In this document: positions 1,523 to 25,640 of the stretch, piece after piece | How the letters are laid out: the number at the start of each line of letters is the position of its first letter | Numbering within the stretch: the stretch's first letter is position 1 | NCBI GenBank assembly: GCA_964522265.1 | Contig: CAZFVS010000001.1 | Coordinates: forward strand, 34,410-66,409 | From: an uncultured Gammaproteobacteria bacterium | GTDB taxonomy: Bacteria > Patescibacteriota > Microgenomatia > Daviesbacterales > UBA10151 | Length of the DNA stretch: 32,000 nt | Direction: 5' to 3' | Notes under the pieces: model-generated | What the model was told of the DNA's origin: nothing | The model's database searches: none | Seen by the model: the letters and a program-made list of their open reading frames with translations, nothing else | Program-made: the position numbers and the translations under genes

Positions 1523-1530
1523 ATGTTGAA

Positions 1531-9177: not shown

Positions 9178-10170
9178 TTAAGTCTCAGGCATTCTATAGA
9201 TAATTTTGCTTCCTTGGTATTCAAAACTAAACGGGACATATAGCAATTTTTTAAGTTTTTTTCTGATTGTCTCATGAGAATCCGGTTTGACGTAAAAAAG
9301 CATGAAGCCTCCTCCGCCTGCTCCCAATAATTTCCCTCCAATCGCCCCGGCAGATAGAGCGGAGTTATAAATTAAATCAATAGTTTCATTGGTGATTTTA
9401 TGGGTGAGACTACGCTTGATCTTCCAGTTTTCATTTAAAAGTTTTCCGAACTGGTCGAGCTTCGTATCTTTACTGGTTAGTATCTTATATGCTTTGTCTA
9501 CTATCTGAAGCATAGCCTTTAACTCTTTACTCTTTTTTGGAGTAGACTTTATTTGTGTTCCAGCTATACCAGAGGCTTGTCTGGTTATACCTGTAAAAAA
9601 AAGCATAAGATGATTTTGCAAATAATTTAAGCGCTTTTTGCCAATATTTATAGGCATAATTTTGATTTCATCCTTTCCTCCGAATAAGATTTTATTAAAT
9701 CCGCCATAAGAAGCTAGTGTTTGATCTTGGGAGCCCACGTTTTCTTTAATCATATTTTGTTCTATATGTATTGCATCCTTTGCTAATTTCTTTTTGTCAA
9801 CCCTATTTCCGAATAGTCCGTATAGACTATTGAGTAGTCCGACTGTAAATGCCGAACTAGTACCAAGGCCGGTAAAAGCAGGTAAATCAGCATTATGTTG
9901 TATTTCTAAGGAACTATTAATTTTAAGAAAATTTAAGCACTCCCGTACAGAAGGATGTTTTATTTGGGAAATTTTTTTTGTATACTCTTGTTTAGTATAT
10001 CGTATCCTGTAGTTATATTTAAAAAAAGGAGGTAGAATACGGCATGTAACATAACAAAATTTGTTTATGGAAGTACCGATCACCGCACCTCTATTTTTTC
10101 TGTACCATATAGGGTAATCAGTTCCTCCGCCAAAGAATGAGATTCTAAAAGGGGTTCGTGTGATAACCAT
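9178..10170 (-). CDS. GHMP-family sugar kinase (HddA-like D-glycero-D-manno-heptose 7-phosphate kinase type)
   Basis: 330 aa. The N-terminus MVITRTPFRISFFGGGTDYP is typical of the HddA-like subgroup. GHMP motif II is PAFTGLGTSSAFTVG and motif III is GAGGGGFMLF. Confidence 0.85.
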   Translation of the reverse strand: MVITRTPFRISFFGGGTDYPIWYRKNRGAVIGTSINKFCYVTCRILPPFFKYNYRIRYTKQEYTKKISQIKHPSVRECLNFLKINSSLEIQHNADLPAFTGLGTSSAFTVGLLNSLYGLFGNRVDKKKLAKDAIHIEQNMIKENVGSQDQTLASYGGFNKILFGGKDEIKIMPINIGKKRLNYLQNHLMLFFTGITRQASGIAGTQIKSTPKKSKELKAMLQIVDKAYKILTSKDTKLDQFGKLLNENWKIKRSLTHKITNETIDLIYNSALSAGAIGGKLLGAGGGGFMLFYVKPDSHETIRKKLKKLLYVPFSFEYQGSKIIYRMPET

Positions 10171-13477: not shown

Positions 13478-14233
13478 TCAAAACCCTAGTCTTTTAGCAC
13501 ACCCGTCGAAGAAAAGGCCTTCTTTTAGATATTCTTTCCCAAATAATTTCATGAATTTTATTCTTGGAAGAGCTAACTTCTTACCTGTTTCTGTCCACAT
13601 CATATCATACCATTCGCTTACCCATTCTATTGAATGGAATATGGTACCTTTTTGTTTCTGAGGTAGTATCCCGCTTCTAAATTCTGCATAACATGGTAGT
13701 TGCCAGTTCATTGCAGTTGATCGTACAACCATATTGGCACCCATTCCATCTATCCGGTCAGCATCCATTAAAACTTTTATCAGCTCCGTTTCTCGAACTT
13801 CATGATTTAAAAGAGGATGATCTTCTATGGCAGTTAGTATTAAATTTTTTTCATCTCTGCTGACGCCTTTTAGGCCATCAACGAAATTAGCTATTATTTC
13901 AGCAGAAAGTTGTCCGTGTAGTTTGTTATGAGCCCTCGGGTCATCTATAACCCGACCAACATCATGTTGAAGTCCTGCTAAAGTTGCATGGTAGGGAGAC
14001 ACTTTTTCTAAAATTGCTATATTGCCTGCCAAATAAGCAACTCTTGTCCAATGATCAAGGCCATGTCCACCAATCCTTAAAGGGCCTTTGTTGCAAGCAT
14101 CCTGGAATATTTGGTTTATGTATGATTTAGTCTTAATAAGCGTAGCTCGTTCGTGATCTTTAAAATAAATATCATGCGGAAGAGCGTTTTCTATATCTTT
14201 TAAGCCTATTCCTGAAGTATCTTCGATGTTCAT
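13478..14233 (-). CDS. HD-domain metal-dependent phosphohydrolase superfamily protein
   Basis: 251 aa. H...HD...D signature: [33 protein letters not shown] overlap with the upstream SDR (14230-14233). Confidence 0.75.
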
Positions 14234-15051: not shown

Positions 15052-15990
15052 TCAGTCAAGCCCGTTTTTACGGTACCATAAAACGGTTTTTTTCAACCCT
15101 TCTTTCAAAGAAGTTTTTGGAGTAAAGCCTAATAGTTTTTTGGCTTTGGAGATATTAATTAACCTGATTGGGATCATAGTAGGTTTTGAAGAATTAAAGA
15201 TAATTTCCGGATTTTTAAAATTATCGATGCTAACTAGTGTTTTTAAAACTTGGAAAATACTGATAGGTTTGCCGCCACCAATATTAATGGGTTGGAAACC
15301 ATCCATTTTTTCAATTGCGAGAAGTAGCCCGTTTACCAAATCCTCAACATAGATAAAATCCTTAATATCTTTTCCATCGCCCCAAACCTCTAAAGGTTTG
15401 TGTCTTTCAACAACTTTCCTCACCAGAGCCGGTATAACATGTGAGGTTTCCCATGCAAAATCATCAAATGGTCCGTAAATATTTCCCGGTCTAACCACAA
15501 TAGTTTGCATAGGGTTCTTAATTTTAATTGCATACATCTCACATAATTTTTCCGTAAATAATTTCATCCACCCGACTGGGAAATATTTTTCATAAAATTC
15601 ATAATTAACATCAGTTTCCCTGACAGGGTAATTTGTTAGTGGGTAAACAGTATTGCTGGAGATAAATAAAAATTTTTTTACCCCGGCTTGATGTGCTGCC
15701 TCCAGCATCAGGCTATTCATAATTACATTAGGGGTTACATGGCTCAGCGGAGTTTTTTCAATAACCGCAGCGCCAGAGGTATTAGCAGCGCACATAAAAA
15801 CAAGATCCACATTCTTGACTGCTTTTTTGCAATCTGATTTTTGGCTAAGATCTGCTTTAATAAATTTGACCCTGTGGTTACTGATTTGCGGCGGTTTTTT
15901 ATGTATCGTTGCTGAAACTTTAGCACCCTTTTTCAGTAGTTTGAGAATTAGATTTGTTCCGACAAATCCCGCACCGCCAGCTATCAACAC
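15052..15990 (-). CDS. Fcl-like extended SDR (NAD-dependent epimerase/dehydratase family), paralog A
   Basis: Rossmann motif LIAGGAGFVGTNL, FISSNTVYP and NIYGPFDDF resemble GDP-fucose-synthase-type enzymes. The ORF track extends to 16227, but that extension overlaps the upstream cupin gene and reads through a GC-rich palindrome. I prefer the GTG at 15990 (giving MLIAGGAGFVG). An ATG at 16074 is the alternative start. Confidence 0.75.
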   Translation of the reverse strand: MLIAGGAGFVGTNLILKLLKKGAKVSATIHKKPPQISNHRVKFIKADLSQKSDCKKAVKNVDLVFMCAANTSGAAVIEKTPLSHVTPNVIMNSLMLEAAHQAGVKKFLFISSNTVYPLTNYPVRETDVNYEFYEKYFPVGWMKLFTEKLCEMYAIKIKNPMQTIVVRPGNIYGPFDDFAWETSHVIPALVRKVVERHKPLEVWGDGKDIKDFIYVEDLVNGLLLAIEKMDGFQPINIGGGKPISIFQVLKTLVSIDNFKNPEIIFNSSKPTMIPIRLINISKAKKLLGFTPKTSLKEGLKKTVLWYRKNGLD

Positions 15991-16013
15991 ACTTTTATTC
16001 TGGAAATAATTTG

Positions 16014-16033
16014 ATTCCCGCTTTCGCGGGAAT
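16014..16033. repeat. GC-rich perfect palindrome (8-bp stem, GAAA loop on the minus strand) between the cupin gene stop and the paralog-A start; REP-like element or intrinsic-terminator-like hairpin
   Basis: Plus strand is ATTCCCGC-TTTC-GCGGGAAT. On the minus strand it reads GTC ATT CCC GCG AAA GCG GGA ATC. This is the palindrome class that yields spurious VIPAKAGI / SFPRKRES / PAFAGMT peptides in ORF calls of many genomes. It lies 18 nt after the stop at 16052. Confidence 0.6.
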
Positions 16034-16051
16034 GACGGGGTGTGGTAAAAA

Positions 16052-16603
16052 TTAAAATCTTCTGCCTGTTTCATCTCGCATGGATAATATTGGGTTTTTA
16101 GTCGGCCACCAGATTTTAAATTCCGGATCGTCCCATTTAATGGTAAATTGGCTATCTGGGTCATAGTATGCAGTTTGTTTATAATAGTAAATATCATAGT
16201 CCGATAAAACCAGATGTCCGTTACCATGGTTAGGCGGAATTAAAACTTGCAGTCTGTTAGTTCCCGACAGTGTAAATGATTCCCACTTTCCGTAATCTTT
16301 TGAATTTTTATCAAAATTTAAAACAACAAGATAAAATTTTCCATACAGACATGAAACCATCTTCCAGGTTTTGATATCACCATGAATACCTTTTAAAACA
16401 CCTTTAGTGCCGGTTGAAATATCATCTTCTACAAATTTTAAGTTAAGGGCATCTTTTGCGTATGGGGTTCCTTTTAATGCATCTGTAAGCGTTTCCTTGT
16501 ATAATTTTTCATTGTACAGTCCAACATATTCTCCCCTAAAATCTTCATAAGAATCCAGTTTTATAAGGAGTACTCCCTCAAGTTTTGTTTTAGATACTTT
16601 CAT
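16052..16603 (-). CDS. Divergent RmlC-like cupin (putative NDP-keto-sugar epimerase/isomerase)
   Basis: The motif order DFRGEY..., VLKGIHGD, KMVSCLYGKFYLVVLNFD, YGKW, IPPNHGNGHLVLSD, WDDP...IWWP parallels RmlC. The start is taken at the ATG at 16603, which forms an ATGA overlap with the upstream stop. Confidence 0.7.
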   Translation of the reverse strand: MKVSKTKLEGVLLIKLDSYEDFRGEYVGLYNEKLYKETLTDALKGTPYAKDALNLKFVEDDISTGTKGVLKGIHGDIKTWKMVSCLYGKFYLVVLNFDKNSKDYGKWESFTLSGTNRLQVLIPPNHGNGHLVLSDYDIYYYKQTAYYDPDSQFTIKWDDPEFKIWWPTKNPILSMRDETGRRF

Positions 16604-17589
16604 TTGAAGTAATTTTTCTTTTTTAAATAATCCTTCCGGTTGTTTATAAACCAATTCCAGGTTTTCTGCAACCCTGTTTTTAATGGGGTAGTCGGATTAT
16701 AATGGATTATTTTTTTAGCAAGGGATAAATCCATCACTCTTTTGGGAAAACCTGAAGGTTTGGTTGCATCAAATCTATAGTTAAAATCTAAAAAGGTATG
16801 CAAAGCGTTAACAAGTTGTTTGATCGAATACCCTTTTCCGCTGCCTAAATTTACAAAACTGCCTTTGGTTCCGTAATGCAAAGCCAGAATAATTCCCTCA
16901 GCTACATCTTTGGAATAAGCAAAATCCCTTATAGCTTTTCCATCCCCCCAAACTACTACAGGATCCTCTTTTTGATAAATCCTATACATTAGGGAAGGGA
17001 TGACCATGGCATTATTCGGGTCAAAATTATCCCCAGGCCCATATACGTTGCAGGGCCTGACAACAGCAAAATTCTCAAGCCCGTACTGTATTTTATAAGA
17101 TTGTATTTGCAGTTCTGATATCCTTTTTGCCCAACCAGGAAACATATCCATCGGCGGCCCATCCTGGTTTTGATTTTCTTTAAAAACTGCAGCCGGTGTG
17201 TAAGCACCAATGGATGAAGTGTAGACAACTTTTTTCACATTGTTAATTCTGCATGCTTCCAGTACATTTGTATTGAACATCAGTAGTGGTACAAAAAAGC
17301 TGGCAGGTTTTGTTTTTGTGACTTCAATAGATCCCTTTATTCCCGCTAAATGAAAAACAAAATCTGTATTATTAGTAACTTTTTTACAAAAATCAAAACT
17401 TGTTAAATCACCATAAATATGCCTGGCCTTTTTATTTACGTTAACTTTATCCAAAGAAACAATTTTAACCTTAGCGCCGGATTCGATCAATATGTCAACT
17501 ACCTGCCTGCCGATTAAACCGGTTCCACCGGTCACCAAACATTTTTTATTCCTGAAGTTTCTTAAAACTTTGCGATCAATCATAGACAA
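16600..17589 (-). CDS. Fcl-like extended SDR (NAD-dependent epimerase/dehydratase family), paralog B
   Basis: 329 aa. Has LVTGGTGLIG, YTSSIGAY, NVYGPGDNFDP and VWGDGKAIRDF. Confidence 0.85.
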   Translation of the reverse strand: MSMIDRKVLRNFRNKKCLVTGGTGLIGRQVVDILIESGAKVKIVSLDKVNVNKKARHIYGDLTSFDFCKKVTNNTDFVFHLAGIKGSIEVTKTKPASFFVPLLMFNTNVLEACRINNVKKVVYTSSIGAYTPAAVFKENQNQDGPPMDMFPGWAKRISELQIQSYKIQYGLENFAVVRPCNVYGPGDNFDPNNAMVIPSLMYRIYQKEDPVVVWGDGKAIRDFAYSKDVAEGIILALHYGTKGSFVNLGSGKGYSIKQLVNALHTFLDFNYRFDATKPSGFPKRVMDLSLAKKIIHYNPTTPLKTGLQKTWNWFINNRKDYLKKKNYFK

Positions 17590-18334
17590 AATATGAGACC
17601 CTTGATGTAAATTTATGCCTTTTTAATTTAATATTATTTAGCCCAAAAACCTCACTTAAGGCAATAGTTTCTCCGGGGCTATCTGCGTCATTTAGCTCGT
17701 CGAATGCAAGCAAGCTTCCTTTAATAAGGTGAGGCTTTATAGCTTCGAGGCATTTTTTAGTAGGCTTATACAGGTCAAAATCGAAATAAGCCAGTGAAAT
17801 TATTGTTTCAGGATATTTTTTTAAGTATTTAATTATTTCTATTGTTGCATCTCCAGCTATTAATTCATATTTTTTGATGTGAGAAAGAGGATTTTCCTGT
17901 TCATGGTAATCCATGATTTTTTCAAGATAATTCTGATAATTTTTTGTTAGAGCCAACCCTCTTTTTACCATCATTTTTGATGTACCATCCTTGGAACTGA
18001 TTTGGGGAAATCCTTTAAAAGTGTCAAACCCGACAATTTTTCTGTGTCTGTTAAATGGGTCATAGATTCCTCGTAGAGCCGAAAATAGAGCCAAATTTTG
18101 TCCCCACCTGGTTCCAAACTCAAAAACAACTCCTGGAATATCAACAATTTTTTGAAAGATGTGGTCCATAAATAAAATCCTGGACAAATTTTTAGAATTT
18201 AGGAAAAGCCCTAAATTAGATAAAATCTGTTCATCGGGAATGGGACAGTTTTTTAAATAACCAATAATCTCTTCCCGTATTTTTTTCTCTGTAGCACTCT
18301 CGTAAGTTAAAATTTTTTGAAGATCTTTTTTCAT
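17576..18334 (-). CDS. TylF/macrocin-type SAM-dependent O-methyltransferase
   Basis: PGVVFEFGTRWGQNL...IVGFDTFKGFP and LAYFDFDLYKPTKKCLE...GSLLAFDE match the TylF-family pattern (GxxxExGxxxG, DxFxGxP, DxDxYxxT). The start is taken at the ATG at 18334, just after the upstream stop. Confidence 0.75.
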   Translation of the reverse strand: MKKDLQKILTYESATEKKIREEIIGYLKNCPIPDEQILSNLGLFLNSKNLSRILFMDHIFQKIVDIPGVVFEFGTRWGQNLALFSALRGIYDPFNRHRKIVGFDTFKGFPQISSKDGTSKMMVKRGLALTKNYQNYLEKIMDYHEQENPLSHIKKYELIAGDATIEIIKYLKKYPETIISLAYFDFDLYKPTKKCLEAIKPHLIKGSLLAFDELNDADSPGETIALSEVFGLNNIKLKRHKFTSRVSYFVYD

Positions 18335-18335
18335 T

Positions 18336-19433
18336 TTATTCAACAATTGCTGAAATGGGTTTTTTGCCTTTGTGTGCAATTACCCAGGCCCAGTACCTGA
18401 TACGTCCTCCTACAAGGTCGTATTTGTATTTTCCGCTTTCAGATTTTTGCAATTTGACAGGTTTTAAAAAATCCCCTTTGTATACTTCTTCAGATAGCAT
18501 GAGGGGTGAAGGGAAAAAATTCAATTTATTGGATAAGGCCTGTTGTAGTGTCTGATAGGCCTTGTGGTTTCCACTAGTTAAAACATTGATATCCTGTACG
18601 GGTACATAAATAATGTTTTGCTTGAAAACATTGTTTAACATAAATTTATCGCTTGCTGATAATTTAAAATACAGACTGCCGAAGTTTTCTTTGACATGGC
18701 CGATGTTAGTAGTACCAGGTATGGCAATGACATTTTTATGTGAAACGATCCAGTTTAGTATAATCTGGCTTGCTGTGACGGAATATTTTTTTGATAATGA
18801 ATTTAATTTTTCCAGATATTGAGGATTCTTCAAAATGGCGCCCGCGTTTAAAGGGCTGTAGGAAATTAAGGTGATATTATTTTTTTGGCAATATGGCAAA
18901 ATGAAATCTTCTACAGTTCTGTCCAATAGGTTATACTCTGTTTGTAATGATACAAGAGGGGCAAATTTTAATACCCCCCTCACTATTTTTAACTGCCTTA
19001 GCGAAAAATTGCTGATTCCGACATATCTGATTTTACCAATCTTGACTAGCTTTTCCATGGCAGCAACTGTTTCTTCTATATCGGTATTAGGATTTGGCCA
19101 GTGTATCTGGTATAGGTCAATATAGTCAGTCTGAAGCCTTCTTAGACTTTCTTCACATGAGCGGATAACATCTTTATACGAGTTATGTTGCGGAGAAAAT
19201 TTTGTAGCGATAAATATTTTTTTTCTGATCTTTTTTAAAGCAGTTCCGATTAAGACTTCGGCATGACCGTCAAAATACACTTCAGCAGTGTCTATTAATT
19301 TAAGACCCAGGTTTACTGATCCACGGATAAGTGATATTAATTTTTTATCGCGGTATTTATTCTGAGACTCGAAACCGGTTCCGGTACCGAGGCCTATTTT
19401 AGGGATTTTTGAAAAGGGATTTTTGAGTGACAT
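18336..19433 (-). CDS. Aldo/keto reductase with a ~100-aa C-terminal ParB/Srx-like extension
   Basis: 365 aa. The AKR core runs IGLGTGTG, IDTAEVY, GHAE, DYIDLYQIHWP, VGISNF through about residue 262. The tail IIYVPVQDINV...GDFLKPVKLQKSESGKYKYDLVGGRIRYWAWVIAHKGKKPISAIV resembles the ParB N-terminal domain pattern (G.L.P..V....G.YELVAGERRYRAA). Confidence 0.8.
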   Translation of the reverse strand: MSLKNPFSKIPKIGLGTGTGFESQNKYRDKKLISLIRGSVNLGLKLIDTAEVYFDGHAEVLIGTALKKIRKKIFIATKFSPQHNSYKDVIRSCEESLRRLQTDYIDLYQIHWPNPNTDIEETVAAMEKLVKIGKIRYVGISNFSLRQLKIVRGVLKFAPLVSLQTEYNLLDRTVEDFILPYCQKNNITLISYSPLNAGAILKNPQYLEKLNSLSKKYSVTASQIILNWIVSHKNVIAIPGTTNIGHVKENFGSLYFKLSASDKFMLNNVFKQNIIYVPVQDINVLTSGNHKAYQTLQQALSNKLNFFPSPLMLSEEVYKGDFLKPVKLQKSESGKYKYDLVGGRIRYWAWVIAHKGKKPISAIVE

Positions 19434-19438: not shown

Positions 19439-19864
19439 TTATTTAGGATCTATATTCCAACCTTTTAAATCATCGGTTTCAATATTGGTACGTTTTAAAC
19501 TCGGTTCTTTGTCGCCGAACTCTTCGAGTAATAAATTTTTCATCCTGTTTCTGATTCCATTAAGTTGGTGAGCCATTTTCAGCAGCTTATCATATTGATC
19601 AGGTTTTTCTTGCAGCTGATCTTTATTGTTCCAAATATAAACATTGATTTGTGCGATTGTAGTAACCAGTCTAATAATTTTAGCTGTTATTTTTGGATTC
19701 TTCTTTTCTTCTAAAATAAACTCGATATCATGGGAGATTTTCCCTAATTCTTTTGAATAACTGTCTTTATTTTTTGATAATTTAATCTCTTTGATCTGGT
19801 CAATAGTCAGTGCGTCTATCAGATCGGCTAAAGTCGGAAGAAATTGTCTTGTTTTATGGCTCAT
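19439..19864 (-). CDS. Hypothetical 141-aa protein, predicted mostly helical, no recognisable family
   Basis: The ORF fills the gap exactly between two genes. It has an ATGA overlap with the upstream SDR gene (19861-19864). Its composition matches its neighbours. No motif was recognised. Confidence 0.6.
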   Translation of the reverse strand: MSHKTRQFLPTLADLIDALTIDQIKEIKLSKNKDSYSKELGKISHDIEFILEEKKNPKITAKIIRLVTTIAQINVYIWNNKDQLQEKPDQYDKLLKMAHQLNGIRNRMKNLLLEEFGDKEPSLKRTNIETDDLKGWNIDPK

Positions 19865-20844
19865 CTTTTAAATTTTTGATAATCACTTACATACCAATTA
19901 ATAGTTTTTAAAATTGCCTGTTCTAAACTGTGCTTAGGCTTAAAGCCCAGAATGTCGGTAGCCCGTTTTACAGAAAGAAGCCTAATTGGGTCTCCGGTTG
20001 GTTTGGTGGTGTCCCAATCAATTTTTTGTTTTTGGGGGACATTTCGGGCAATTGTTTGAGCTATTTTTTTGATGATGTATTTTTTGCCGGTTCCCAGGTT
20101 TATTGGCAAGCAAGTTGGGGCTTTTTCTAATGCAAGAATCATCCCGTCTGCTGCGTCATCAACAAAAATAAAATCCCTGATAGCGCTTCCGTCTCCCCAG
20201 ATTTTGACCGGGTTTTCTCCGTTTATCATTCTGGCAATTAACGCTGGAATAACCTGAGCAGTTTTTGGATTAAAATCATCAAAAGGACCAAAGACGTTAG
20301 AGGGTCTGACAATCTTTACAGCATCCCAGCCGTATTCCTTAAGATAAGTTTCACCCTGCAACTCGCCGACCCTTTTGGCAATGCCGGGAATCCTGTCATT
20401 TTGTTTAGGCATACCATCCCAGACTGTTTCTTCTTCTTTGGGTTTATTTGACTGTGGATAAGCGCAGATGCTGGAAACAAACAAAAACTTTTGAACATTA
20501 TTTTTAAAGCTTGCATCCATCAGATTTGTCTGAAACCTTAGCATTGGTACGAAATAACTTGCAACTTTTGTTTCATCTATACCTACAGATCCTTTAATTC
20601 CAACCAGATTAAAAACATAATCTTTGCCTTTGGTAACTTTTAGGCAGTTATTTAAGTCAGTTAGATCTTTATGGATAAATTCAACCTGTTTTTGGAAAAC
20701 TTCATCAACAAATTTTTTATCATCAAGCGATACTATAATAATTTTTGCACCGATTTTAAGCAGTTTATTGACCAGAGAAATGCCAATCATGCCGGAGCCG
20801 CCTGCCACTAAAATTTTCTTATCTTTATAAAAACTATTGGACAT
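19861..20844 (-). CDS. Fcl-like extended SDR (NAD-dependent epimerase/dehydratase family), paralog C
   Basis: 327 aa. Has LVAGGSGMIG, FVSSICAYP, NVFGPFDDFNP and IWGDGSAIRDF. Confidence 0.85.
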   Translation of the reverse strand: MSNSFYKDKKILVAGGSGMIGISLVNKLLKIGAKIIIVSLDDKKFVDEVFQKQVEFIHKDLTDLNNCLKVTKGKDYVFNLVGIKGSVGIDETKVASYFVPMLRFQTNLMDASFKNNVQKFLFVSSICAYPQSNKPKEEETVWDGMPKQNDRIPGIAKRVGELQGETYLKEYGWDAVKIVRPSNVFGPFDDFNPKTAQVIPALIARMINGENPVKIWGDGSAIRDFIFVDDAADGMILALEKAPTCLPINLGTGKKYIIKKIAQTIARNVPQKQKIDWDTTKPTGDPIRLLSVKRATDILGFKPKHSLEQAILKTINWYVSDYQKFKR

Positions 20845-21808
20845 TATTTTTTTTGTTGTTAGTCCATCGCCTTATATTTTTTATCAAGGTCTGATTGTTG
20901 AGTCTTAGCGATGAAAGCATATAATCTCTATCGCCATATGTAAAGCAATGACCATCGGAGAACCCAAATCTTAAAAACTTTACAGGTAGATTATGGTCAG
21001 TTAAGAAATCACTGATGATTGTTCCAACACCACTGTAAGATAAATGTTCATCAAGCGTTATAACAAAAGGGTATCTTTTTATCAAAGAATACAGCAGCTT
21101 TTCGTTTAAAGGTTTTAACCGATAAACATCAATAACACCAAGTTTTAAGTTGTTAGTTTCTAAAGCCTTAGTAATTTCAATTGCTTTATGTACAAATACA
21201 CCTGTTGTAACAATTACTCCATCATTGCCTTTTTGAACTTCCTTTAGTCCGTCCAAAAAATTATCTTTTTTGTCATAAAGCTCAGGATAGTTGCCTTTAT
21301 CAAAACGTATATAGGTAAGTCCTGGATATTTATATACTAAATGAGGGAAAACAGATAAACTAATATTATCCGAAGCATTTAAAATCCTCATATGCGGAAT
21401 TGCCCTCATTGCCGCAAGATCTTGGTTGGCATGATGGGTTGGACCGTCACTTCCGTAAGTTAATCCTCCGCCTATTCCTGCAATTACAACAGGCAGGTTC
21501 ATTAAAGACAAATTAACTTTAATCTGTTCCAAACAGCGGATAGTGGCAAAGTTGACAATTGCATGGACAAAAACTTTTTTACCCGAAAGTGCCAGTCCTG
21601 CTGCCACATTGATCATATTTTGTTCCGCAATTCCCGCATTTATAATCTGCGTTGGTATTTCTTTGTAAAATTTTTCAAAAGAACGAACTCCCTGGTCTGC
21701 ATGGAGAAGGATTACATCCTTATCTTTTTTTGCAATAACAAAAAGCTCTTCAAAAAAAGCATCCCTCATATCTGAATATTTTGTATTTGGTGCGGTTATT
21801 TTTTTCAT
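20834..21808 (-). CDS. Transketolase, C-terminal (pyrimidine-binding) subunit of a split transketolase
   Basis: 324 aa. Has NAGIAEQNMINVAAGLALSGK and GPTHHANQDLAAMRAIP. Its start ATG overlaps the stop of the N-subunit gene by 1 nt (TAATG at 21806-21810). Confidence 0.9.
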   Translation of the reverse strand: MKKITAPNTKYSDMRDAFFEELFVIAKKDKDVILLHADQGVRSFEKFYKEIPTQIINAGIAEQNMINVAAGLALSGKKVFVHAIVNFATIRCLEQIKVNLSLMNLPVVIAGIGGGLTYGSDGPTHHANQDLAAMRAIPHMRILNASDNISLSVFPHLVYKYPGLTYIRFDKGNYPELYDKKDNFLDGLKEVQKGNDGVIVTTGVFVHKAIEITKALETNNLKLGVIDVYRLKPLNEKLLYSLIKRYPFVITLDEHLSYSGVGTIISDFLTDHNLPVKFLRFGFSDGHCFTYGDRDYMLSSLRLNNQTLIKNIRRWTNNKKNNVQ

Positions 21809-22623
21809 TAAAGCCCCAGTTCTTTTTCTGCTTTTATTTTCTGATCAGGGTTTGGAACACCGTGGTGCCAATGGGGGTTGTTTTCCATGAATGATACTCC
21901 TTTCCCCTTGATTGTGTTTGCGATGATTGCCAGCGGTTTGATTCTTTTTTTTTGCTTTGCTTTTTTGATTGCGTTTATGATCTGCTTAAAATTATGCCCA
22001 TCTATGTTAACTGTTTCCCAGCCAAAAGCTGCCCATCTGCCTTCCATTGGTGAGTTGCCTGCAAAATCTTTCGTATTTGTTGTTGCGGCAATGGAATTAT
22101 TATCTACGAAGACCGTTAAATTATTCAATTTTTGTGAGGATGCAAAGTTGGCAGCTTCCCAGACAGACCCTTCAGCGCATTCGCCGTCTCCTAAAATAAC
22201 AAAAGTGATAAAATTTTTTCTGTCCAGTTTGGCACCCAAAGCAAGTCCTGCACCAATACCCAACCCGTGGCCCAGAGATCCTGAGGATATTTCGATCCCC
22301 GGTATAAAATGGTCAGGGTGTCCGCCCAAGATTGAGCCATTTTGCCCGTATGTGTTTAATACCTCTTTTTTGAAAAAACCAGCATCTGCAAGTACTGCAT
22401 AAAGTGCCAGACAGGCATGACCTTTGCTGAGTATGATCCGGTCGCGGTTAGGGTCATTTTGGTTTTTAGCAGATATTTTTAGAAGTTTTGAAAAATAAAG
22501 AGATACTAAAATCTCGGTAACTGAAAAAGCTCCTCCAAGATGTCCTTTCCCTGCCTGGGATTGCATCCTGAAAGCTTGTTGTCTGACCCATTCCGCTTTT
22601 TGTACCAGCTTCTCATTCATCAA
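21808..22623 (-). CDS. Transketolase, N-terminal (ThDP-binding) subunit of a split transketolase
   Basis: 271 aa. Has GHLGGAFS, LSKGHA, and the ThDP motif LGDGECAEGSVWEA...NN. Confidence 0.9.
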   Translation of the reverse strand: MMNEKLVQKAEWVRQQAFRMQSQAGKGHLGGAFSVTEILVSLYFSKLLKISAKNQNDPNRDRIILSKGHACLALYAVLADAGFFKKEVLNTYGQNGSILGGHPDHFIPGIEISSGSLGHGLGIGAGLALGAKLDRKNFITFVILGDGECAEGSVWEAANFASSQKLNNLTVFVDNNSIAATTNTKDFAGNSPMEGRWAAFGWETVNIDGHNFKQIINAIKKAKQKKRIKPLAIIANTIKGKGVSFMENNPHWHHGVPNPDQKIKAEKELGL

Positions 22624-23693
22624 AAAGGTCCTTTAAATTTATTTTCATAACTGTAGAACTGCTCGTTGCTTAAATCTGTTGGTTGGAAAAGCTTTTCTTC
22701 AATCGCCCTGATGATTGTTACTGCATTAGGATAAAACTCATTTTCTAAGGGTCTGGTGCAGGGGCAGGGTGTGGGTGCAAAACCGATTCTTTTAACCGCT
22801 GATTTTAGGATTTTATAGCATTGATCATAAACCCGGGTAGCCACTTCAGCGCTAAAACCGCAATTTATCCAGTCGTAGTCCGCAATAATAAGATGCCCTG
22901 TTTTTTTAACTGAGTTGATGATTATCCCCTCATCCAGAGGGGAAATTGTCCTGGGGTCAATTACCTCTACCGATACCCCTCTTCTTTCAAGTATCTCTGC
23001 AGCCTTGAGTGCCTCCACATTCATATAGGATGTGGCAACAATTGTTACATCTTTCCCCTCATGTAAAATTTTGCCCTGGCCCATGGGTAGGGGATCTGGG
23101 TTTTCATCAACCTCTCCCATGACATCATAGAGCATCCTGTGTTCCAAAAAAACCACAGGATTATTATCTCTGATTGCAGCTTTCAACAGCCCTTTGGTAT
23201 CTGATGGAGTAGTGGGCATAATAACTTTCAGGCCCGGAATATGGGCAAAAAAAGACTGAAGACTTTTACTATGTTGGTAGGACTGGCCCCAGCCTTTGCC
23301 AATGACAGCTCGGATAACAAGAGGGATTTTATATCTGCCGTTTGAACCGTAACCATAACTTGAGACCATATTTACAAGCTGGTTCATGGCCAAGAGTAAG
23401 AAATCCAACCTAATATGTACATTAACCGGCCGCATCCCGTTTATTGCTGCCCCGAGTCCGAACCCTAAAAGAGCCTCTTCCGATAAGGGAGTTGAAAAAA
23501 TCCTTTCAGGCCCAAATTCCTCCAGGAGTCCCGAAGTTGAGCCGAATATTCTTTTATGGTCAGCGGCATCAATTCCGTATACGAAGACATTTGGATCCAA
23601 CCTCATCTCTTCAGCAAGTGCTTCAGCAATAGCCTGGCGGTAACTGATCAAACGGGTTTTAGAGTTTAAGTTGTTTGTTTTGGTACTTTTCAT
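22620..23693 (-). CDS. 2-oxoacid (pyruvate/acetoin-type) dehydrogenase E1 component, beta subunit-like
   Basis: 357 aa. Has FSTPLSEEALLGFGLGAAINGMRPV and a C-terminal transketolase-C-like domain. ATGA overlaps on both sides. Confidence 0.88.
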   Translation of the reverse strand: MKSTKTNNLNSKTRLISYRQAIAEALAEEMRLDPNVFVYGIDAADHKRIFGSTSGLLEEFGPERIFSTPLSEEALLGFGLGAAINGMRPVNVHIRLDFLLLAMNQLVNMVSSYGYGSNGRYKIPLVIRAVIGKGWGQSYQHSKSLQSFFAHIPGLKVIMPTTPSDTKGLLKAAIRDNNPVVFLEHRMLYDVMGEVDENPDPLPMGQGKILHEGKDVTIVATSYMNVEALKAAEILERRGVSVEVIDPRTISPLDEGIIINSVKKTGHLIIADYDWINCGFSAEVATRVYDQCYKILKSAVKRIGFAPTPCPCTRPLENEFYPNAVTIIRAIEEKLFQPTDLSNEQFYSYENKFKGPF

Positions 23694-24661
23694 TCTTGGT
23701 AAACATTATTGTATAGATCTTCTTTTTGGGGAAACGGGGTTTTTTGGGCAGATTCCAGGCTTTTGTATATTTTTTCCGAAATCTGCGCTTCTAATTCTTG
23801 GATCTGTTTTTCTGTAAACTTAAGACCTAACAGTTTTTTCCTTTGAATTAAGTATGGGTCGATTCTTTTCCATTTTTCAAACTCATCCTTGCTTCTGTAA
23901 CCTGCTTGAAAATCCTCATGTACTCCGACATGTTCAAGATAGCGGTAGTATTTTAACTGTATAAATGCCGGTGTTTTATCTTTTTCAATTTTAGCAATGG
24001 CATTTAGTGTCAGGTTATAAATTACTTCCGGGTCAGTTGTATTTTCTTCAAAAAAATTGATTTTATATTGGGATATAATTTTTGTTAAAGAATCATAGCC
24101 GCGCCTTAAATGAGTAGCTGTGTGGACTGCCAAACCATTATCCTCGCAAATGAACAGGACAGGAAGCTTCATCAGGCAGGCTATGTTGAGGCTTTCCCAA
24201 AACACGCCTTCATCTGTTGCCCCATCCCCGAAAAAAACAGCAACAACTTTGCCGTTTTTTTTCTGTTTATTGACAAACGCAGCCCCTAGAGCAAGCGGGA
24301 TTGTGCTTGCCACAATTGCAGATACACCCAGGAGGTTATGTTCTGGCGAAATCAGGTGCATTGATCCGCCCTTACCTTTGACAACACCAGTAGTCTTACC
24401 GTACATTTCCCCAAAAAACCCTTCCACATCACCTGTTTTTGCAAGATACAACCCATGGCTTCTGTAAGTTCCGAAAGCTTGGTGGTTTGTACCAAGGGCA
24501 AGGCAGCAACCTGCAGAAATTGCCTCAGAACCCATTGACATGTGCATTGGTGTTTTCATCTCATCAGATTCATAATTTTCAATAATAAGCTCTTCACTCC
24601 GTCGTATCAGGTAAACAGTTTTATATAAATTAAGATTTAAATTCTTCCTATCAGATGGCAT
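23690..24661 (-). CDS. 2-oxoacid (pyruvate/acetoin-type) dehydrogenase E1 component, alpha subunit-like (ThDP-binding)
   Basis: Has MHMSMGSEA, the ThDP motif FFGDGATDEG...EDN, and YRYLEH. The start is taken at the internal ATG at 24661 (MPSDRKNL), because the longer ORF runs 62 nt into the upstream gene. Confidence 0.88.
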   Translation of the reverse strand: MPSDRKNLNLNLYKTVYLIRRSEELIIENYESDEMKTPMHMSMGSEAISAGCCLALGTNHQAFGTYRSHGLYLAKTGDVEGFFGEMYGKTTGVVKGKGGSMHLISPEHNLLGVSAIVASTIPLALGAAFVNKQKKNGKVVAVFFGDGATDEGVFWESLNIACLMKLPVLFICEDNGLAVHTATHLRRGYDSLTKIISQYKINFFEENTTDPEVIYNLTLNAIAKIEKDKTPAFIQLKYYRYLEHVGVHEDFQAGYRSKDEFEKWKRIDPYLIQRKKLLGLKFTEKQIQELEAQISEKIYKSLESAQKTPFPQKEDLYNNVYQE

Positions 24662-25640
24662 TTTTGTAGTAATCCCTCCAATAGTTAAGCATGTCCAAAA
24701 GCGTGTCATCAAACTTATAAAGCGGTTTCCAGCCAGTAGCTTTTATGAATTTATCAACGGAGGGGATTTGCAATGTTACATCTGAAGGCCTCAGTCTTTT
24801 GGGATCATCTTTTATCCCGACACCCTTTTTGGTGGAGAATGAGATAAGTTTATTTAACATCTCCCCTACAGTCATGGTTTCAACTCCGCCGATATTGTAA
24901 ACTTCTCCGTCCTTGCACTTGTTTACCAGAAGCCAATAAGCCCTAACAGCATCCCGCACATCCATAAAAGTACGTATGCTATTTAAATTGCCTACCATCA
25001 CTGTAGGTTTTTGTTTCCCTACCTCTATAGCTGCTATCTGTTTTGCAAAATTGGAAGGTGCAAAAACCTCGCCGCGTCTTGGACCTTCATGGGTGAACAT
25101 CCTTGTCCTGATTGTTTTTAAACCCCATGATAAAAAATATTGATATGCAATCATATCCTCACCAACTTTTGATACCGCATAAGGGGAGGCAGGCCGCAAC
25201 GGGTTTGTTTCTTTAATAGGTATCTCATTTTTTGTCACCTGACCATAAACTTCCGAAGAACTACAAATATGAATAATGGGGTCATAACCGGATTTACGTT
25301 TATTTTGTAAAATAGCCTCCAATAAATTACATGTTCCAATAGTATTTATTTCAAGTGTTGATGAAGGGGCAAGAAAACTGAAGTCAACATAAGATTGGGC
25401 TGCCAGATGAAATATGACGTCGGGTTTTTCCTCACTTATAGTTTTGTTTAAAGAATGGGAATCTAAAAGGTCGCCGTGGATCAGTTTTATTTTATGCAAT
25501 ACATGAGAGATGTTATTCTTTGGGGATCGCCACCTGACCAATCCTGAAATTTTTACTTTAGGGTGATTCTCTAAAATATAATCGACAAGATGACTACCGA
25601 CAAAACCGGTGATGCCGGTGATTAACGCCTTTTTATACAT
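24651..25640 (-). CDS. gmd: GDP-mannose 4,6-dehydratase family NDP-sugar 4,6-dehydratase
   Basis: 329 aa. Has ALITGITGFVGSHL, HLAAQSYVDFSF, a catalytic YAVSK, and FTHEGPRRGEVF (compare NHESPRRG of Gmd). The true sugar substrate (mannose or heptose) is not readable from the sequence. Confidence 0.8.
   Translation of the reverse strand: MYKKALITGITGFVGSHLVDYILENHPKVKISGLVRWRSPKNNISHVLHKIKLIHGDLLDSHSLNKTISEEKPDVIFHLAAQSYVDFSFLAPSSTLEINTIGTCNLLEAILQNKRKSGYDPIIHICSSSEVYGQVTKNEIPIKETNPLRPASPYAVSKVGEDMIAYQYFLSWGLKTIRTRMFTHEGPRRGEVFAPSNFAKQIAAIEVGKQKPTVMVGNLNSIRTFMDVRDAVRAYWLLVNKCKDGEVYNIGGVETMTVGEMLNKLISFSTKKGVGIKDDPKRLRPSDVTLQIPSVDKFIKATGWKPLYKFDDTLLDMLNYWRDYYKNAI

What the first reader, a model, noticed from the sequence alone, without database searches (positions are those of the whole stretch)
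20834..24661. Two different heteromeric ThDP enzymes (E1 alpha/beta pair and split transketolase) embedded in a nucleotide-sugar tailoring operon, with no E2/E3
Four genes sit between the Gmd-family 4,6-dehydratase (24651-25640) and an Fcl-like SDR (19861-20844). They encode two unrelated thiamine-diphosphate systems.
- The first is an E1 alpha subunit (GDGATDEG) plus an E1 beta subunit of the pyruvate/acetoin dehydrogenase type.
- The second is a split transketolase (GHLGGAFS and GDGECAEG in the N-subunit, plus a pyrimidine-binding C-subunit).

All junctions are 1-11 nt overlaps, so the genes look translationally coupled to the sugar genes. No lipoyl-E2 or E3 gene is in the window, so this is not a dehydrogenase complex operon.

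There is a precedent. E1 alpha/beta-like pairs without E2/E3 in deoxysugar clusters (for example AviB1/AviB2 of avilamycin, and the aldgarose pathway) are proposed to add two-carbon branches from pyruvate to NDP-4-keto sugars.

Two carboligase-type systems next to a 4,6-dehydratase therefore suggest C-C bond formation on an activated sugar, giving a C-branched or chain-extended sugar. Alternatively, the transketolase may act as a dedicated sedoheptulose-7-P supply for the HddA/HddC-like module. I cannot map this combination onto a described surface-glycan pathway.
Basis: partly seen in the sequence, partly recalled or inferred. Interest (0 to 1): 0.7.

Follow-up and report, generated by a model that had tools for sequence, protein, structure and literature searches.

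The report
Two thiamine enzymes in heptose-sugar operon
A surface-sugar operon carries two thiamine-dependent carbon-carbon bond-forming enzyme pairs right after a GDP-heptose dehydratase, as part of a gene cassette shared by hundreds of mostly uncultured microbes, and probably builds a carbon-branched heptose that nobody has yet described.

Summary
Four overlapping minus-strand genes encode E1 alpha, E1 beta, and transketolase N and C subunits. No E2/E3 gene lies in the window or in 87 related loci.

- **Conserved cassette.** E1 beta relatives at 58-78% identity occur in at least 80 inspected genomes (574 candidates) across many phyla, almost all MAGs. They always sit in glycan loci next to a 4,6-dehydratase.
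- **Heptose pathway.** That dehydratase's best solved relative is the Campylobacter GDP-D-glycero-D-manno-heptose 4,6-dehydratase. Heptose-type epimerase, kinase and nucleotidyltransferase genes accompany it.
- **E1 pair is the core.** These E1 betas form one clade apart from the three E2/E3-linked E1 betas compared. They carry an extra C-terminal tail ending F(K/R)GPF.
- **Transketolase pair is optional.** It is present in 22 of 58 loci and travels with an aldo-keto reductase and a methyltransferase. It keeps the catalytic histidines, but a conserved phosphate-site His is Gly and an Arg is Lys. This argues against a housekeeping or sedoheptulose-7-P supply role.

Best reading: both pairs add two-carbon units to a GDP-keto-deoxyheptose. 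This is inferred from context, not shown biochemically. It is a new variant of known ThDP-dependent sugar branching.

The parts
24651..25640 (-). NDP-sugar 4,6-dehydratase of the GDP-D-glycero-D-manno-heptose type. It probably makes the GDP-4-keto-6-deoxyheptose acceptor.
   Evidence: PF16363 7.2e-77. Best solved relative is 7US5, the GDP-D-glycero-D-manno-heptose 4,6-dehydratase, at 1.7e-81; GDP-mannose dehydratases score about 1e-38. A relative was found in 47 of 58 related loci, directly upstream of E1 alpha in most.
23690..24661 (-). E1 alpha-like ThDP subunit (323 aa from the ATG at 24661; the ORF also opens at a TTG at 24712).
   Evidence: PF00676 5.3e-47. TIGR03182 scores 252 bits against a cut-off of 394. 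GDG...DN ThDP motif is in the translation. Present with E1 beta in 58 of 58 loci.
22620..23693 (-). E1 beta-like subunit with a family-specific C-terminal tail of about 25 aa ending FKGPF.
   Evidence: PF02779 plus PF02780. NF006667 scores 303 bits against a cut-off of 321. Listed relatives are 58-78% identical across many phyla. The tail is absent from the two full-length E2/E3-linked E1 betas compared. The clade is monophyletic.
21808..22623 (-). Transketolase N-terminal (diphosphate-binding) subunit.
   Evidence: PF00456 8.8e-43. Nearest solved chain is 6YAK, the split transketolase, at 1.8e-68. The residues matching human His37, His77, His110 and His258 are all His, and the GDG motif is kept. 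The Mg/ThDP ligands Asp155 and Asn185 are kept in all 26 cassette sequences, the window included.
20834..21808 (-). Transketolase C-terminal (pyrimidine-binding) subunit with an altered phosphate-binding site.
   Evidence: PF02779 plus PF02780. In human numbering, His416 is Gly113, Arg474 is Lys171 and Ser345 is Arg42, while Arg318, Glu366 and Asp424 are kept. Gly and Lys are shared by all 19 correctly extracted cassette copies. Gly is found in all 150 best representatives.
19861..20844 (-). Fcl-like extended SDR (SDR_A). Pairs with the 141-aa protein in a subset of transketolase-containing loci.
   Evidence: PF01370 1.7e-45. GDP-L-fucose synthase model scores 175 bits against a cut-off of 500. 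Co-occurrence.
19439..19864 (-). 141-aa protein of unknown function; predicted four-helix bundle.
   Evidence: No Pfam or NCBIfam hit. Small family of 212 proteins. Model pLDDT 82.9. No fold match at E <= 0.001.
18336..19433 (-). Aldo-keto reductase with about 100 extra C-terminal residues. Candidate reductase of the transketolase-derived keto branch.
   Evidence: PF00248 9.5e-68 covering residues 12-262 of 365. Found in 11 of 22 transketolase-containing loci and 1 of 36 loci without it, Fisher p = 3e-5.
17576..18379 (-). TylF/Methyltransf_24-like protein, probably a methyltransferase. The true start is probably the ATG at 18334.
   Evidence: Weak Pfam hits: PF13578 0.0054 and PF05711 0.026. 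A homologue in L004 carries precomputed 'TylF (weak)'. Found in 12 of 22 transketolase-containing loci and 1 of 36 without it, p = 8e-6.
16600..17589 (-). Fcl-like extended SDR (SDR_B). Conserved cassette member at 58-75% identity.
   Evidence: PF01370 6.6e-46. Best solved relatives include GDP-fucose synthases. Present in 31 of 58 loci.
16052..16654 (-). RmlC-like cupin of the GDP-4-keto-heptose 3,5-epimerase type.
   Evidence: PF00908 4.8e-38. Best solved relatives are the C. jejuni GDP-D-glycero-4-keto-D-lyxo-heptose 3,5-epimerases 8DB5, 8DCO and 7M14, at about 1e-32.
15052..16227 (-). Fcl-like extended SDR (SDR_C). The ORF's first ~50 codons overlap the epimerase gene, so the true start is probably near 16074.
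   Evidence: PF01370 5.8e-47, with the domain starting at residue 80. Present in 44 of 58 loci.
9178..10170 (-). GHMP kinase, HddA-like (heptose 7-phosphate kinase type).
   Evidence: Best NCBIfam hit is NF049969 HddA at 5.6e-43, 148 bits, below the cut-off of 600. Present in 39 of 58 loci.
8467..9177 (-). Sugar-1-phosphate nucleotidyltransferase, HddC-like.
   Evidence: Best NCBIfam hit is NF049965 HddC at 9.1e-48, 163 bits, below the cut-off of 300.

Best explanation
**Proposed function.** The four genes belong to a horizontally spread cassette that tailors a GDP-activated heptose for a surface glycan. In this window the glycan is exported by a Wzm/Wzt ABC transporter.

**Proposed steps.**
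1. The HddA/HddC-like kinase and nucleotidyltransferase make a GDP-heptose.
2. The 4,6-dehydratase converts it to GDP-4-keto-6-deoxyheptose.
3. The E2-less E1 alpha/beta pair acts as a carboligase. It decarboxylates pyruvate on ThDP and adds the hydroxyethyl anion equivalent to the sugar ketone. This gives a C-acetyl branch on a tertiary alcohol, as proposed for AviB1/B2 and shown with sugar analogues for KbDH-alpha/beta.
4. The split transketolase keeps the residues that hold a glycolaldehyde-ThDP intermediate but has a remodelled phosphate pocket. It adds a second two-carbon (hydroxyacetyl) unit to a ketone, either on the ring or on the new acetyl branch.
5. The co-occurring aldo-keto reductase reduces the resulting ketone, and the TylF-like methyltransferase methylates it.
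6. The heptose-type 3,5-epimerase and the Fcl-like reductases set the ring stereochemistry.

**Shown.** Domain identities, gene coupling, absence of E2/E3, cassette conservation, module co-occurrence and active-site substitutions.

**Inferred.** Every chemical step, the donors, the carbon attacked and the order of the steps.
For: **Genes and coupling**
- Domain assignments and overlapping genes.

**Not a dehydrogenase complex**
- No E2/E3 homologue in the window or in 87 related loci, 1.46 Mb in all. No such Pfam domain in the window.
- E1 alpha and E1 beta score below the PDH equivalog cut-offs.

**Conserved cassette**
- The same gene order recurs in Daviesbacteria, Omnitrophota and a 1.08 Mb metagenome contig.
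- It is seen in 80 genome loci from many phyla, out of 574 confirmed candidates.
- The 75 cassette E1 betas are monophyletic. A glycan-locus E1 beta from Azospirillum is their sister, and E2/E3-linked E1 betas lie outside.
- The C-terminal tail ending F(K/R)GPF occurs only in the E2-less group.

**Heptose pathway**
- The dehydratase and epimerase match C. jejuni GDP-heptose enzymes best.
- The kinase and nucleotidyltransferase hit HddA and HddC best.

**Transketolase**
- The window's N subunit keeps all four catalytic His; across the 26 cassette copies each is kept in most (19-25 of 26). The Mg/ThDP ligands are kept in all 26.
- In the C subunit, His416 is Gly in every member of the clade. Arg474 is Lys and Ser345 is variable.
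- The pair co-occurs with the AKR and the TylF-like gene (p = 3e-5 and 8e-6).
- The C subunit is fused to a SAM-methyltransferase-like domain in four loci.

**Literature**
- E1 alpha/beta (alpha-KADH2) enzymes and split transketolases are the two non-YerE classes proposed to C-branch keto sugars (PMC12247030).
- Cultured relatives place the E1 pair next to DegT aminotransferases. This mirrors the transaminated branch of kibdelomycin.
Against: - No biochemical data exist for any member of this clade.
- I could not obtain AviB1/B2, KbDH or AlmDI/DII sequences, so grouping with proven sugar-branching E1 pairs is untested.
- Both catalytic His of dehydrogenase-type E1 are retained. The active site therefore does not by itself exclude a lipoyl acceptor.
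- The cassette carries two or three Fcl-like reductases. That is more than needed if C4 becomes a tertiary alcohol, so the branch position, or even a second unbranched product, is open.
- No C-branched heptose has been reported in the papers I could search.
- The rest of the genome is not visible, so a distant E2/E3 or the lack of another transketolase cannot be excluded.
- The NJ tree has few outgroups and no bootstrap support.
Confidence: 0.55

Rival explanations
1. The transketolase pair is an ordinary pentose-phosphate transketolase. It is either the organism's housekeeping copy or a dedicated supplier of sedoheptulose-7-P for the GDP-heptose pathway. Only the E1 pair, if anything, touches the sugar nucleotide.
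For: - Heptose synthesis starts from sedoheptulose-7-P.
- The N subunit keeps all catalytic His and the ThDP/Mg ligands.
- The nearest solved structure is a genuine split transketolase, 6YAK/6YAJ.
- To my knowledge, split transketolases serve as the housekeeping form in some bacteria and archaea.
- The rest of the genome is not visible.
Against: - His416 (human numbering) is Gly in the window, in every correctly extracted cassette copy and in all 150 best 50%-cluster representatives. The canonical split enzyme 6YAJ keeps His.
- Arg474 is Lys and Ser345 is not conserved.
- 36 of 58 heptose/E1 cassettes have no transketolase.
- Transketolase presence tracks the AKR and TylF-like genes rather than the kinase.
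- The C subunit is fused to a methyltransferase-like domain in four loci.
Confidence: 0.1
2. The E1 alpha/beta pair is the E1 component of a pyruvate, acetoin or branched-chain 2-oxoacid dehydrogenase complex whose E2 and E3 are encoded elsewhere. Its place in the sugar operon is incidental.
For: - The best family hits are PDH E1 alpha and beta models.
- The residue matching His128 of the G. stearothermophilus beta subunit, and the alpha-subunit loop His, are conserved.
Against: - Scores fall below the curated cut-offs.
- No E2/E3 lies within 10 kb in any of 87 loci. Genuine complexes keep E2 and E3 adjacent, as in Priestia and Phaeobacter.
- The pair is always found in glycan loci, next to the 4,6-dehydratase in most.
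- Its clade is distinct and carries an extra C-terminal tail.
- Hosts include Patescibacteria, which to my knowledge generally lack such complexes.
Confidence: 0.03
3. One or both ThDP enzymes make a small non-sugar building block, such as an acyloin, an aldehyde or a hydroxy-keto compound. This is then attached to the glycan through oxygen or nitrogen, or serves as donor for another enzyme. They do not form a C-C bond on the sugar nucleotide itself.
For: - Locus L006 also holds a YerE/ErwE-type ThDP enzyme with an aldolase and an acetaldehyde dehydrogenase. This arrangement is known to prepare a keto-acid donor for erwiniose (PMC9306805). Donor-supply roles therefore exist in such clusters.
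- The number of Fcl-like reductases would suit an ordinary ring pathway.
Against: - The E1 pair sits directly after the enzyme that makes the keto sugar in most loci.
- Known E2-less E1 pairs in sugar clusters are assigned to direct branching.
- No acyl- or alkyl-transferase is conserved in the cassette.
Confidence: 0.15

Closest known systems
alpha-KADH2-type sugar-branching E1 alpha/beta pairs: AviB1/AviB2 (avilamycin), Pau11/Pau12 (paulomycin), the aldgamycin pair and KbDH-alpha/beta (kibdelomycin)
   Same: - Two-subunit E1 architecture without E2/E3.
- Encoded among NDP-sugar 4,6-dehydratase and tailoring genes.
- Expected to use pyruvate to add a C2 branch to a keto sugar, which a reductase or aminotransferase then modifies (PMC12247030, PMC4753412).
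   Different: - The known ones sit in actinomycete antibiotic clusters and act on 6-deoxyhexose or pentose nucleotides.
- This one sits in surface-glycan loci of many, mostly uncultured, phyla, with GDP-heptose-type enzymes.
- It has its own C-terminal tail.
- It is often followed by a second ThDP system.
- Sequence relatedness to the proven enzymes was not tested.
Split-gene transketolases proposed to add a hydroxyacetyl branch in miharamycin and amipurimycin biosynthesis
   Same: - Separate N and C subunit genes inside a sugar-tailoring cluster.
- A ketone acceptor is proposed (PMC12247030).
   Different: - Those are reported only from Streptomyces, 13 sequences according to the review, and their function is itself unproven.
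- Here the pair lies in glycan loci, always alongside an E1 pair in the loci I sampled, and belongs to a large clade with Gly at the conserved His416 position.
YerE/YerF (yersiniose A) and ErwE/ErwF/ErwI/ErwJ (erwiniose)
   Same: - ThDP-dependent branching of an NDP-4-keto-deoxysugar for an O-antigen, followed by ketoreduction.
- Related locus L006 even carries a YerE-type enzyme with an ErwI/J-like aldolase and dehydrogenase (PMC9306805).
   Different: - YerE and ErwE are single-chain decarboxylase-family enzymes acting on CDP-3,6-dideoxy-4-keto-glucose.
- The window uses E1-type and transketolase-type enzymes on a GDP-heptose scaffold.
Campylobacter jejuni GDP-heptose modification pathway (4,6-dehydratase, 3- or 3,5-epimerases, C4 reductases)
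   Same: - The dehydratase and the cupin epimerase have these enzymes as their best solved relatives.
- The kinase and nucleotidyltransferase resemble HddA and HddC.
   Different: - The ThDP enzymes are not part of the C. jejuni heptose pathway as I know it, and my literature searches linked no ThDP enzyme to it.
- The kinase and transferase here score far below the equivalog cut-offs.
Canonical split transketolase of Carboxydothermus hydrogenoformans (PDB 6YAK/6YAJ)
   Same: - Best solved match for both subunits (1.8e-68 and 7.9e-39).
- Same fold and same cofactor residues.
   Different: 6YAJ keeps the conserved His and Arg of the phosphate site. The window protein and its whole clade have Gly, and mostly Lys.

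Membership tests
E2-less sugar-branching E1 alpha/beta (alpha-KADH2 type: AviB1/B2, KbDH) | Separate E1 alpha (PF00676) and E1 beta (PF02779 + PF02780) subunits encoded side by side | tested here: met
   The genes overlap by 4 nt.
E2-less sugar-branching E1 alpha/beta (alpha-KADH2 type: AviB1/B2, KbDH) | No lipoyl-E2 or E3 partner in the cluster | tested here: met
   No such Pfam domain in the window. tblastn with E2/E3 proteins found nothing in the window plus 87 loci.
E2-less sugar-branching E1 alpha/beta (alpha-KADH2 type: AviB1/B2, KbDH) | Embedded among NDP-sugar 4,6-dehydratase and keto-sugar tailoring genes | tested here: met
   Window gene order. A dehydratase relative is present in 47 of 58 related loci.
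E2-less sugar-branching E1 alpha/beta (alpha-KADH2 type: AviB1/B2, KbDH) | Groups in a tree with experimentally supported members | not tested
   Sequences of AviB1/B2, KbDH, AlmDI/DII and Pau11/12 were not obtainable with the tools. Only glycan-locus and complex-type comparators were used.
E2-less sugar-branching E1 alpha/beta (alpha-KADH2 type: AviB1/B2, KbDH) | Transfers a pyruvate-derived C2 unit to a keto sugar | not testable with these tools
   Needs an enzyme assay.
E1 component of a 2-oxoacid or acetoin dehydrogenase complex | Reaches the curated family score | tested here: not met
   TIGR03182 scores 252 bits against a cut-off of 394. NF006667 scores 303 bits against 321.
E1 component of a 2-oxoacid or acetoin dehydrogenase complex | E2 and E3 genes adjacent | tested here: not met
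   Contrast Priestia and Phaeobacter, where E2 and E3 follow E1 beta.
E1 component of a 2-oxoacid or acetoin dehydrogenase complex | Catalytic His of the beta subunit and of the alpha loop present | tested here: met
   This does not discriminate, because a carboligase could use the same residues.
Canonical transketolase (EC 2.2.1.1), split form | N subunit with the ThDP/Mg motif and four catalytic His | tested here: met
   Window. Across the 26 cassette sequences: His37 25, His77 24, His110 19, His258 24, Asp155 26 and Asn185 26 of 26.
Canonical transketolase (EC 2.2.1.1), split form | Phosphate-binding residues of the C half (human Arg318, Ser345, His416, Arg474) | tested here: not met
   Only Arg318 is kept. 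His416 is Gly, Arg474 is Lys and Ser345 is Arg or variable.
Canonical transketolase (EC 2.2.1.1), split form | Reaches the curated family score | tested here: inconclusive
   Scores are 274 and 148 bits against a cut-off of 488. The models describe the fused full-length enzyme, so a single subunit cannot reach the cut-off.
Split transketolases of keto-sugar branching (miharamycin/amipurimycin type) | Split genes inside a sugar-tailoring cluster | tested here: met
Split transketolases of keto-sugar branching (miharamycin/amipurimycin type) | Sequence relatedness to those enzymes, and hydroxyacetyl transfer to a ketone | not tested
According to PMC12247030 the activity is unproven even for the named enzymes.
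GDP-heptose modification pathway (C. jejuni type) | Heptose-specific 4,6-dehydratase and 3,5-epimerase | tested here: met
   Best solved relatives are 7US5 (1.7e-81) and 8DB5, 8DCO and 7M14 (about 1e-32). This rests on similarity only.
GDP-heptose modification pathway (C. jejuni type) | HddA kinase and HddC guanylyltransferase | tested here: inconclusive
   These are the best NCBIfam hits, but far below the cut-offs: 148 against 600 and 163 against 300.

The most novel reading that the evidence does not exclude
The cassette builds a so far undescribed higher-carbon sugar by using ThDP chemistry twice. An E1 pair first puts an acetyl branch on GDP-4-keto-6-deoxyheptose. A phosphate-independent transketolase clade then extends or duplicates the branch with a glycolaldehyde unit. 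Reduction and methylation follow, giving a C9 to C11 branched heptose on the cell surface. In related loci the same scaffold accepts further modules, such as a YerE-type enzyme with an aldolase, B12-radical SAM enzymes or aminotransferases. It would then be a widespread combinatorial system for carbon-branched heptoses in Patescibacteria, Omnitrophota and many other uncultured lineages.
Probability: 0.3. Interest if true: 0.8.

Novelty: new variant of a known kind. Interest (0 to 1): 0.62.

Why it matters
ThDP-dependent C-branching of sugars is known from a few O-antigens (YerE type) and from actinomycete antibiotics (E1 type). Transketolase-type branching has only been proposed.

If this reading is right, it matters in four ways.
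- An E1-type brancher would be one of the most widely shared glycan-tailoring modules in uncultured bacteria and some archaea.
- It would act on heptose nucleotides, for which I found no C-branched product described.
- The associated transketolase clade would be a natural source of enzymes that accept ketones and non-phosphorylated partners, which biocatalysis groups are looking for.
- It would give a concrete, testable handle on the unknown cell-surface chemistry of Patescibacteria and Omnitrophota.

Cultured carriers of related E1 pairs, Azospirillum lipoferum 4B and Solidesulfovibrio magneticus RS-1, make experiments possible.

Tried and rejected
- **Exact-sequence look-ups.** The nearest loci are Microgenomates-group genomes.
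- **E1 active-site comparison.** The beta His128 equivalent and the alpha loop His are both kept. This does not separate carboligase from dehydrogenase.
- **The 141-aa protein.** A homologue search, a confident four-helix model (pLDDT 82.9) and a PDB fold search gave no match at E <= 0.001. Its function stays open.
- **Literature searches.** Searches for heptose plus thiamine or transketolase found no described pathway. Searches for KbDH or aldgarose genes found nothing beyond the 2025 review. The key in-silico study (Krug et al. 2024) is not held, and one query was rejected for syntax.
- **Leptospira.** I recalled that Leptospira rfb loci might carry such genes. No Leptospira appeared among the best 80 genome hits, so I dropped the idea as unverified.
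- **Stetter-type addition.** I considered addition to the 4-keto-5,6-ene intermediate of the dehydratase as a route to chain extension. Nothing tests it, so it is not part of the main explanation.
- **The short-chain SDR at 14230-15024.** It matches the SDRs that follow E1 beta in other loci only at 23-30% identity. It cannot be equated with them.

Full report
**1. What is in the window**

All ORFs of the 32 kb window lie on the minus strand and form one long glycan locus. Read 5' to 3' on that strand, it holds these genes:
- a GT1 glycosyltransferase and a methyltransferase;
- Wzm and Wzt ABC-transporter genes;
- two FkbM methyltransferases;
- a 4,6-dehydratase (25640-24651);
- E1 alpha (24661-23690) and E1 beta (23693-22620);
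- transketolase N (22623-21808) and C (21808-20834);
- an Fcl-like SDR, a 141-aa protein and an aldo-keto reductase;
- a TylF-like protein, a second Fcl-like SDR and an RmlC-like cupin;
- a third Fcl-like SDR, a short-chain SDR, an HD protein and a GT2;
- further on, an HddA-like kinase and an HddC-like nucleotidyltransferase;
- finally a NeuB/KdsC-like module.

The domain hits for the four ThDP genes are very strong (PF00676 5.3e-47; PF02779/PF02780 about 1e-33; PF00456 8.8e-43; PF02779 1.3e-27). The junctions overlap by 11, 4, 4 (or 1), 1 and 11 nt.

**2. No dehydrogenase complex**

- No lipoyl, E2 or E3 domain was found in any window ORF scanned.
- I took E2 and E3 proteins from two genuine complexes that turned up as distant plasmid hits, Priestia and Phaeobacter, where E2 and E3 follow E1 beta directly.
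- A tblastn with them against the window plus 87 related loci (1.46 Mb) gave no hit at E <= 1e-5.
- E1 alpha and E1 beta score below the NCBIfam PDH cut-offs: 252 against 394, and 303 against 321.

**3. The genes belong to a conserved, widely spread cassette**

- E1 beta has thousands of relatives, and the best 120 are 68-78% identical. The named ones come from Daviesbacteria, Levybacteria, Microgenomates and Omnitrophota.
- Three sets of contigs show the same order: dehydratase, E1 alpha, E1 beta, TK_N, TK_C, AKR, a ~250-aa TylF-like protein, Fcl-like SDR, RmlC-like cupin, Fcl-like SDR, GHMP kinase. In the Daviesbacteria loci (L002, L003) a ~312-aa methyltransferase-like gene, an Fcl-like SDR and a ~145-aa protein sit between TK_C and the AKR, and the kinase was not seen within the flank.
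- A scan of one genome per species used two family-specific peptide patterns. It found more than 600 stretches, of which 574 were confirmed by tblastn.
- The best 80 are 58-70% identical. They come from Patescibacteria, Omnitrophota, Elusimicrobia, Planctomycetota, Chloroflexota, several proteobacterial classes, Bacteroidota, Verrucomicrobiota, Terriglobia, Gemmatimonadota and Nitrospirota. Two are archaeal MAGs. Only one, Magnetococcales HHB-1, is not labelled a MAG.
Its closest loci are Microgenomates-group genomes, with 70-77% identity for several cassette proteins.

**4. Core and optional modules**

I compared every window protein with all loci by tblastn. Among the 58 loci with enough flanking sequence:

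| Gene | Loci with it |
|---|---|
| E1 alpha | 58 |
| 4,6-dehydratase | 47 |
| Fcl-like SDR_C | 44 |
| GHMP kinase | 39 |
| Transketolase pair | 22 |

- The AKR occurs in 11 of 22 transketolase-containing loci and 1 of 36 others (Fisher p = 3e-5).
- The TylF-like protein occurs in 12 of 22 against 1 of 36 (p = 8e-6).
- The kinase looks less frequent in transketolase-containing loci. This is probably because the longer cassette pushes it beyond the 10 kb flank.

The E1 pair is therefore the invariant core. The transketolase, AKR and methyltransferase form an optional add-on.

A further ~310-aa protein with weak methyltransferase hits (best E = 3e-4) follows E1 beta or TK_C in about 37 distinct loci. 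It is fused to TK_C in four of them and is absent from the window.

**5. The sugar is a heptose nucleotide**

- The dehydratase's best solved relative is the C. jejuni GDP-D-glycero-D-manno-heptose 4,6-dehydratase (7US5, 1.7e-81). GDP-mannose dehydratases score about 1e-38.
- The cupin's best relatives are C. jejuni GDP-4-keto-heptose 3,5-epimerases.
- The kinase and nucleotidyltransferase hit HddA and HddC best, though far below the cut-offs.
- Related loci add a GmhB-like phosphatase and an SIS-domain protein.

The likely acceptor for the ThDP enzymes is thus GDP-4-keto-6-deoxyheptose. This is an inference from similarity.

**6. What distinguishes the E1 pair**

- The residue matching beta-subunit His128 of the G. 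stearothermophilus enzyme is conserved, and so is the alpha-loop His. The active site is therefore not diagnostic.
- All cassette E1 betas carry a ~25-residue C-terminal extension ending F(K/R)GPF.
- An Azospirillum lipoferum 4B plasmid E1 beta (49% identical), which lies in a glycan locus without E2/E3, shares the tail.
- The two full-length E2/E3-linked E1 betas (Priestia, Phaeobacter) lack it.
- In a neighbour-joining tree the 75 cassette sequences are monophyletic. Azospirillum is their sister, and the complex-type E1 betas lie outside. The tree has few outgroups and no bootstrap support.
- In Azospirillum the E1 pair is directly followed by a DegT aminotransferase. In Solidesulfovibrio magneticus RS-1 an Fcl-like SDR lies between the E1 pair and the DegT gene. 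Both recall the transaminated C2 branch of kibdelomycin described in PMC12247030.

**7. What distinguishes the transketolase**

- The window's N subunit keeps the four catalytic His of human transketolase (His37, 77, 110, 258) and the GDG motif. Most cassette copies do too. The Mg/ThDP ligands Asp155 and Asn185 are kept in all 26 cassette sequences.
- In the C subunit, Arg318, Glu366 and Asp424 are kept.
- His416 is Gly, Arg474 is Lys and Ser345 is Arg or variable.
- The canonical split enzyme of C. hydrogenoformans keeps His and Arg.
- All 150 best representatives from a 1.84-billion-protein library have Gly at the His416 position, and 88 also have Lys at the Arg474 position.
- From my knowledge of transketolase structures, these residues bind the phosphate of the sugar-phosphate substrates.

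This is a large, separate clade whose phosphate pocket is remodelled.

**8. Comparison with what is known**

- A 2025 review (PMC12247030) lists three ThDP enzyme classes that branch keto sugars.
  - YerE-like decarboxylase-family enzymes act in O-antigens.
  - E1 alpha/beta "alpha-KADH2" enzymes act in actinomycete antibiotics. They always add C2 from pyruvate. About 120 clusters are predicted, and KbDH has been tested on sugar analogues.
  - Split transketolases are proposed for miharamycin and amipurimycin. They are untested, and the 13 predicted sequences are all from Streptomyces.
- PMC4753412 gives the AviB1/B2 and Pau11/12 precedent.
- PMC9306805 describes ErwE with an aldolase and an acetaldehyde dehydrogenase. 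Locus L006 carries that very trio in addition to the E1 and transketolase pairs.
- A methyltransferase, TK_N, TK_C and aminotransferase set is noted, without an assigned function, in an Actinoplanes exopolysaccharide cluster (PMC13390465).
- I found no paper linking ThDP enzymes to heptose nucleotides.

**9. Conclusion**

The best-supported reading is that the E1 pair, and where present the transketolase pair, add two-carbon units to a GDP-keto-deoxyheptose. Reduction by the AKR or an SDR, and methylation, would follow.

The sedoheptulose-7-P supply idea and the PDH idea are both disfavoured. The position attacked, the donors and the product remain unknown.

This is a new variant of a known kind of chemistry. 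It is notable for its very wide distribution, its heptose scaffold and its use of two ThDP systems in one operon.

Noticed in passing
window 59-4290 (-): A second sugar module lies at the 3' end of the operon. It holds a NeuB-like synthase (3226-4290), a cupin fused to a KdsC/KDN-9-P-phosphatase-like HAD domain (2327-3229), an SDR and an aldehyde dehydrogenase. This suggests a nonulosonic or KDN-like acid is also made. NeuB is not a regular part of the E1 cassette in other loci.
   Followed up: partly
window 10145-10813 and 10927-11571 (-): Two adjacent ORFs of 222 and 214 aa resemble the C-terminal and N-terminal halves of the 453-aa unknown protein at 7105-8466. They look like a paralogue broken by a frameshift or stop. 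This is judged by eye from the translations.
   Followed up: no
window 12795-13241 (-): A 148-aa ORF reads like the C-terminal part of an extended SDR/epimerase without its Rossmann fold. It is probably a gene remnant between the GT2 and HD genes.
   Followed up: no
window 22001-25000: G+C is 0.41-0.42 over the E1 genes and part of the transketolase genes. Most of the locus is at 0.27-0.39. This fits strong protein conservation or recent transfer of this block.
   Followed up: no
L006 11043-12740 and 16424-18388: A related cassette on a 1.08 Mb metagenome contig carries a third ThDP enzyme, of the YerE/acetolactate-synthase type, between E1 beta and TK_N. It also carries an acetaldehyde dehydrogenase and an HMGL-type aldolase. 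This is the gene set described for the erwiniose branch donor.
   Followed up: partly
L025, L030, L033, L084 (TK_C genes, about 628-647 aa): The transketolase C subunit is fused to a ~310-aa class I SAM-methyltransferase-like domain. The same protein is free-standing after E1 beta or TK_C in about 37 distinct loci and is missing from the window.
   Followed up: partly
L004 14884-16209 and 19443-20819; L060 13956-15338: Radical SAM genes, two of them with a B12-binding domain, sit inside some cassettes. They may perform C-methylation on the same sugar.
   Followed up: no
window 19439-19864 (-): The 141-aa protein belongs to a small family of 212 proteins with no Pfam domain and about 22 invariant residues. 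It has a confident four-helix model but no fold match. In most loci where it was seen it follows the Fcl-like SDR_A directly.
   Followed up: yes
window 18336-19433 (-): The aldo-keto reductase has about 100 residues beyond the Pfam domain. The homologues are of the same length (364-396 aa), so this is a conserved extra C-terminal region of unknown role.
   Followed up: no
L087 (Azospirillum lipoferum 4B plasmid p6) and L088 (Solidesulfovibrio magneticus RS-1 pDMC1): Cultured bacteria carry E2-less E1 alpha/beta pairs, 44-49% identical, in plasmid-borne glycan loci. A DegT aminotransferase lies next to the pair or one gene away. In RS-1 there are also a kinase, a nucleotidyltransferase and an SIS-domain protein. 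These strains are usable experimental entry points.
   Followed up: partly
L072 (Gemmatimonadetes MAG): This locus holds two E1 alpha/beta pairs. One is of the cassette type (E1 beta 63% identical) and the second is more distant (E1 alpha 38%, E1 beta 45%). The second pair lies near the AKR-like and TylF-like genes.
   Followed up: no
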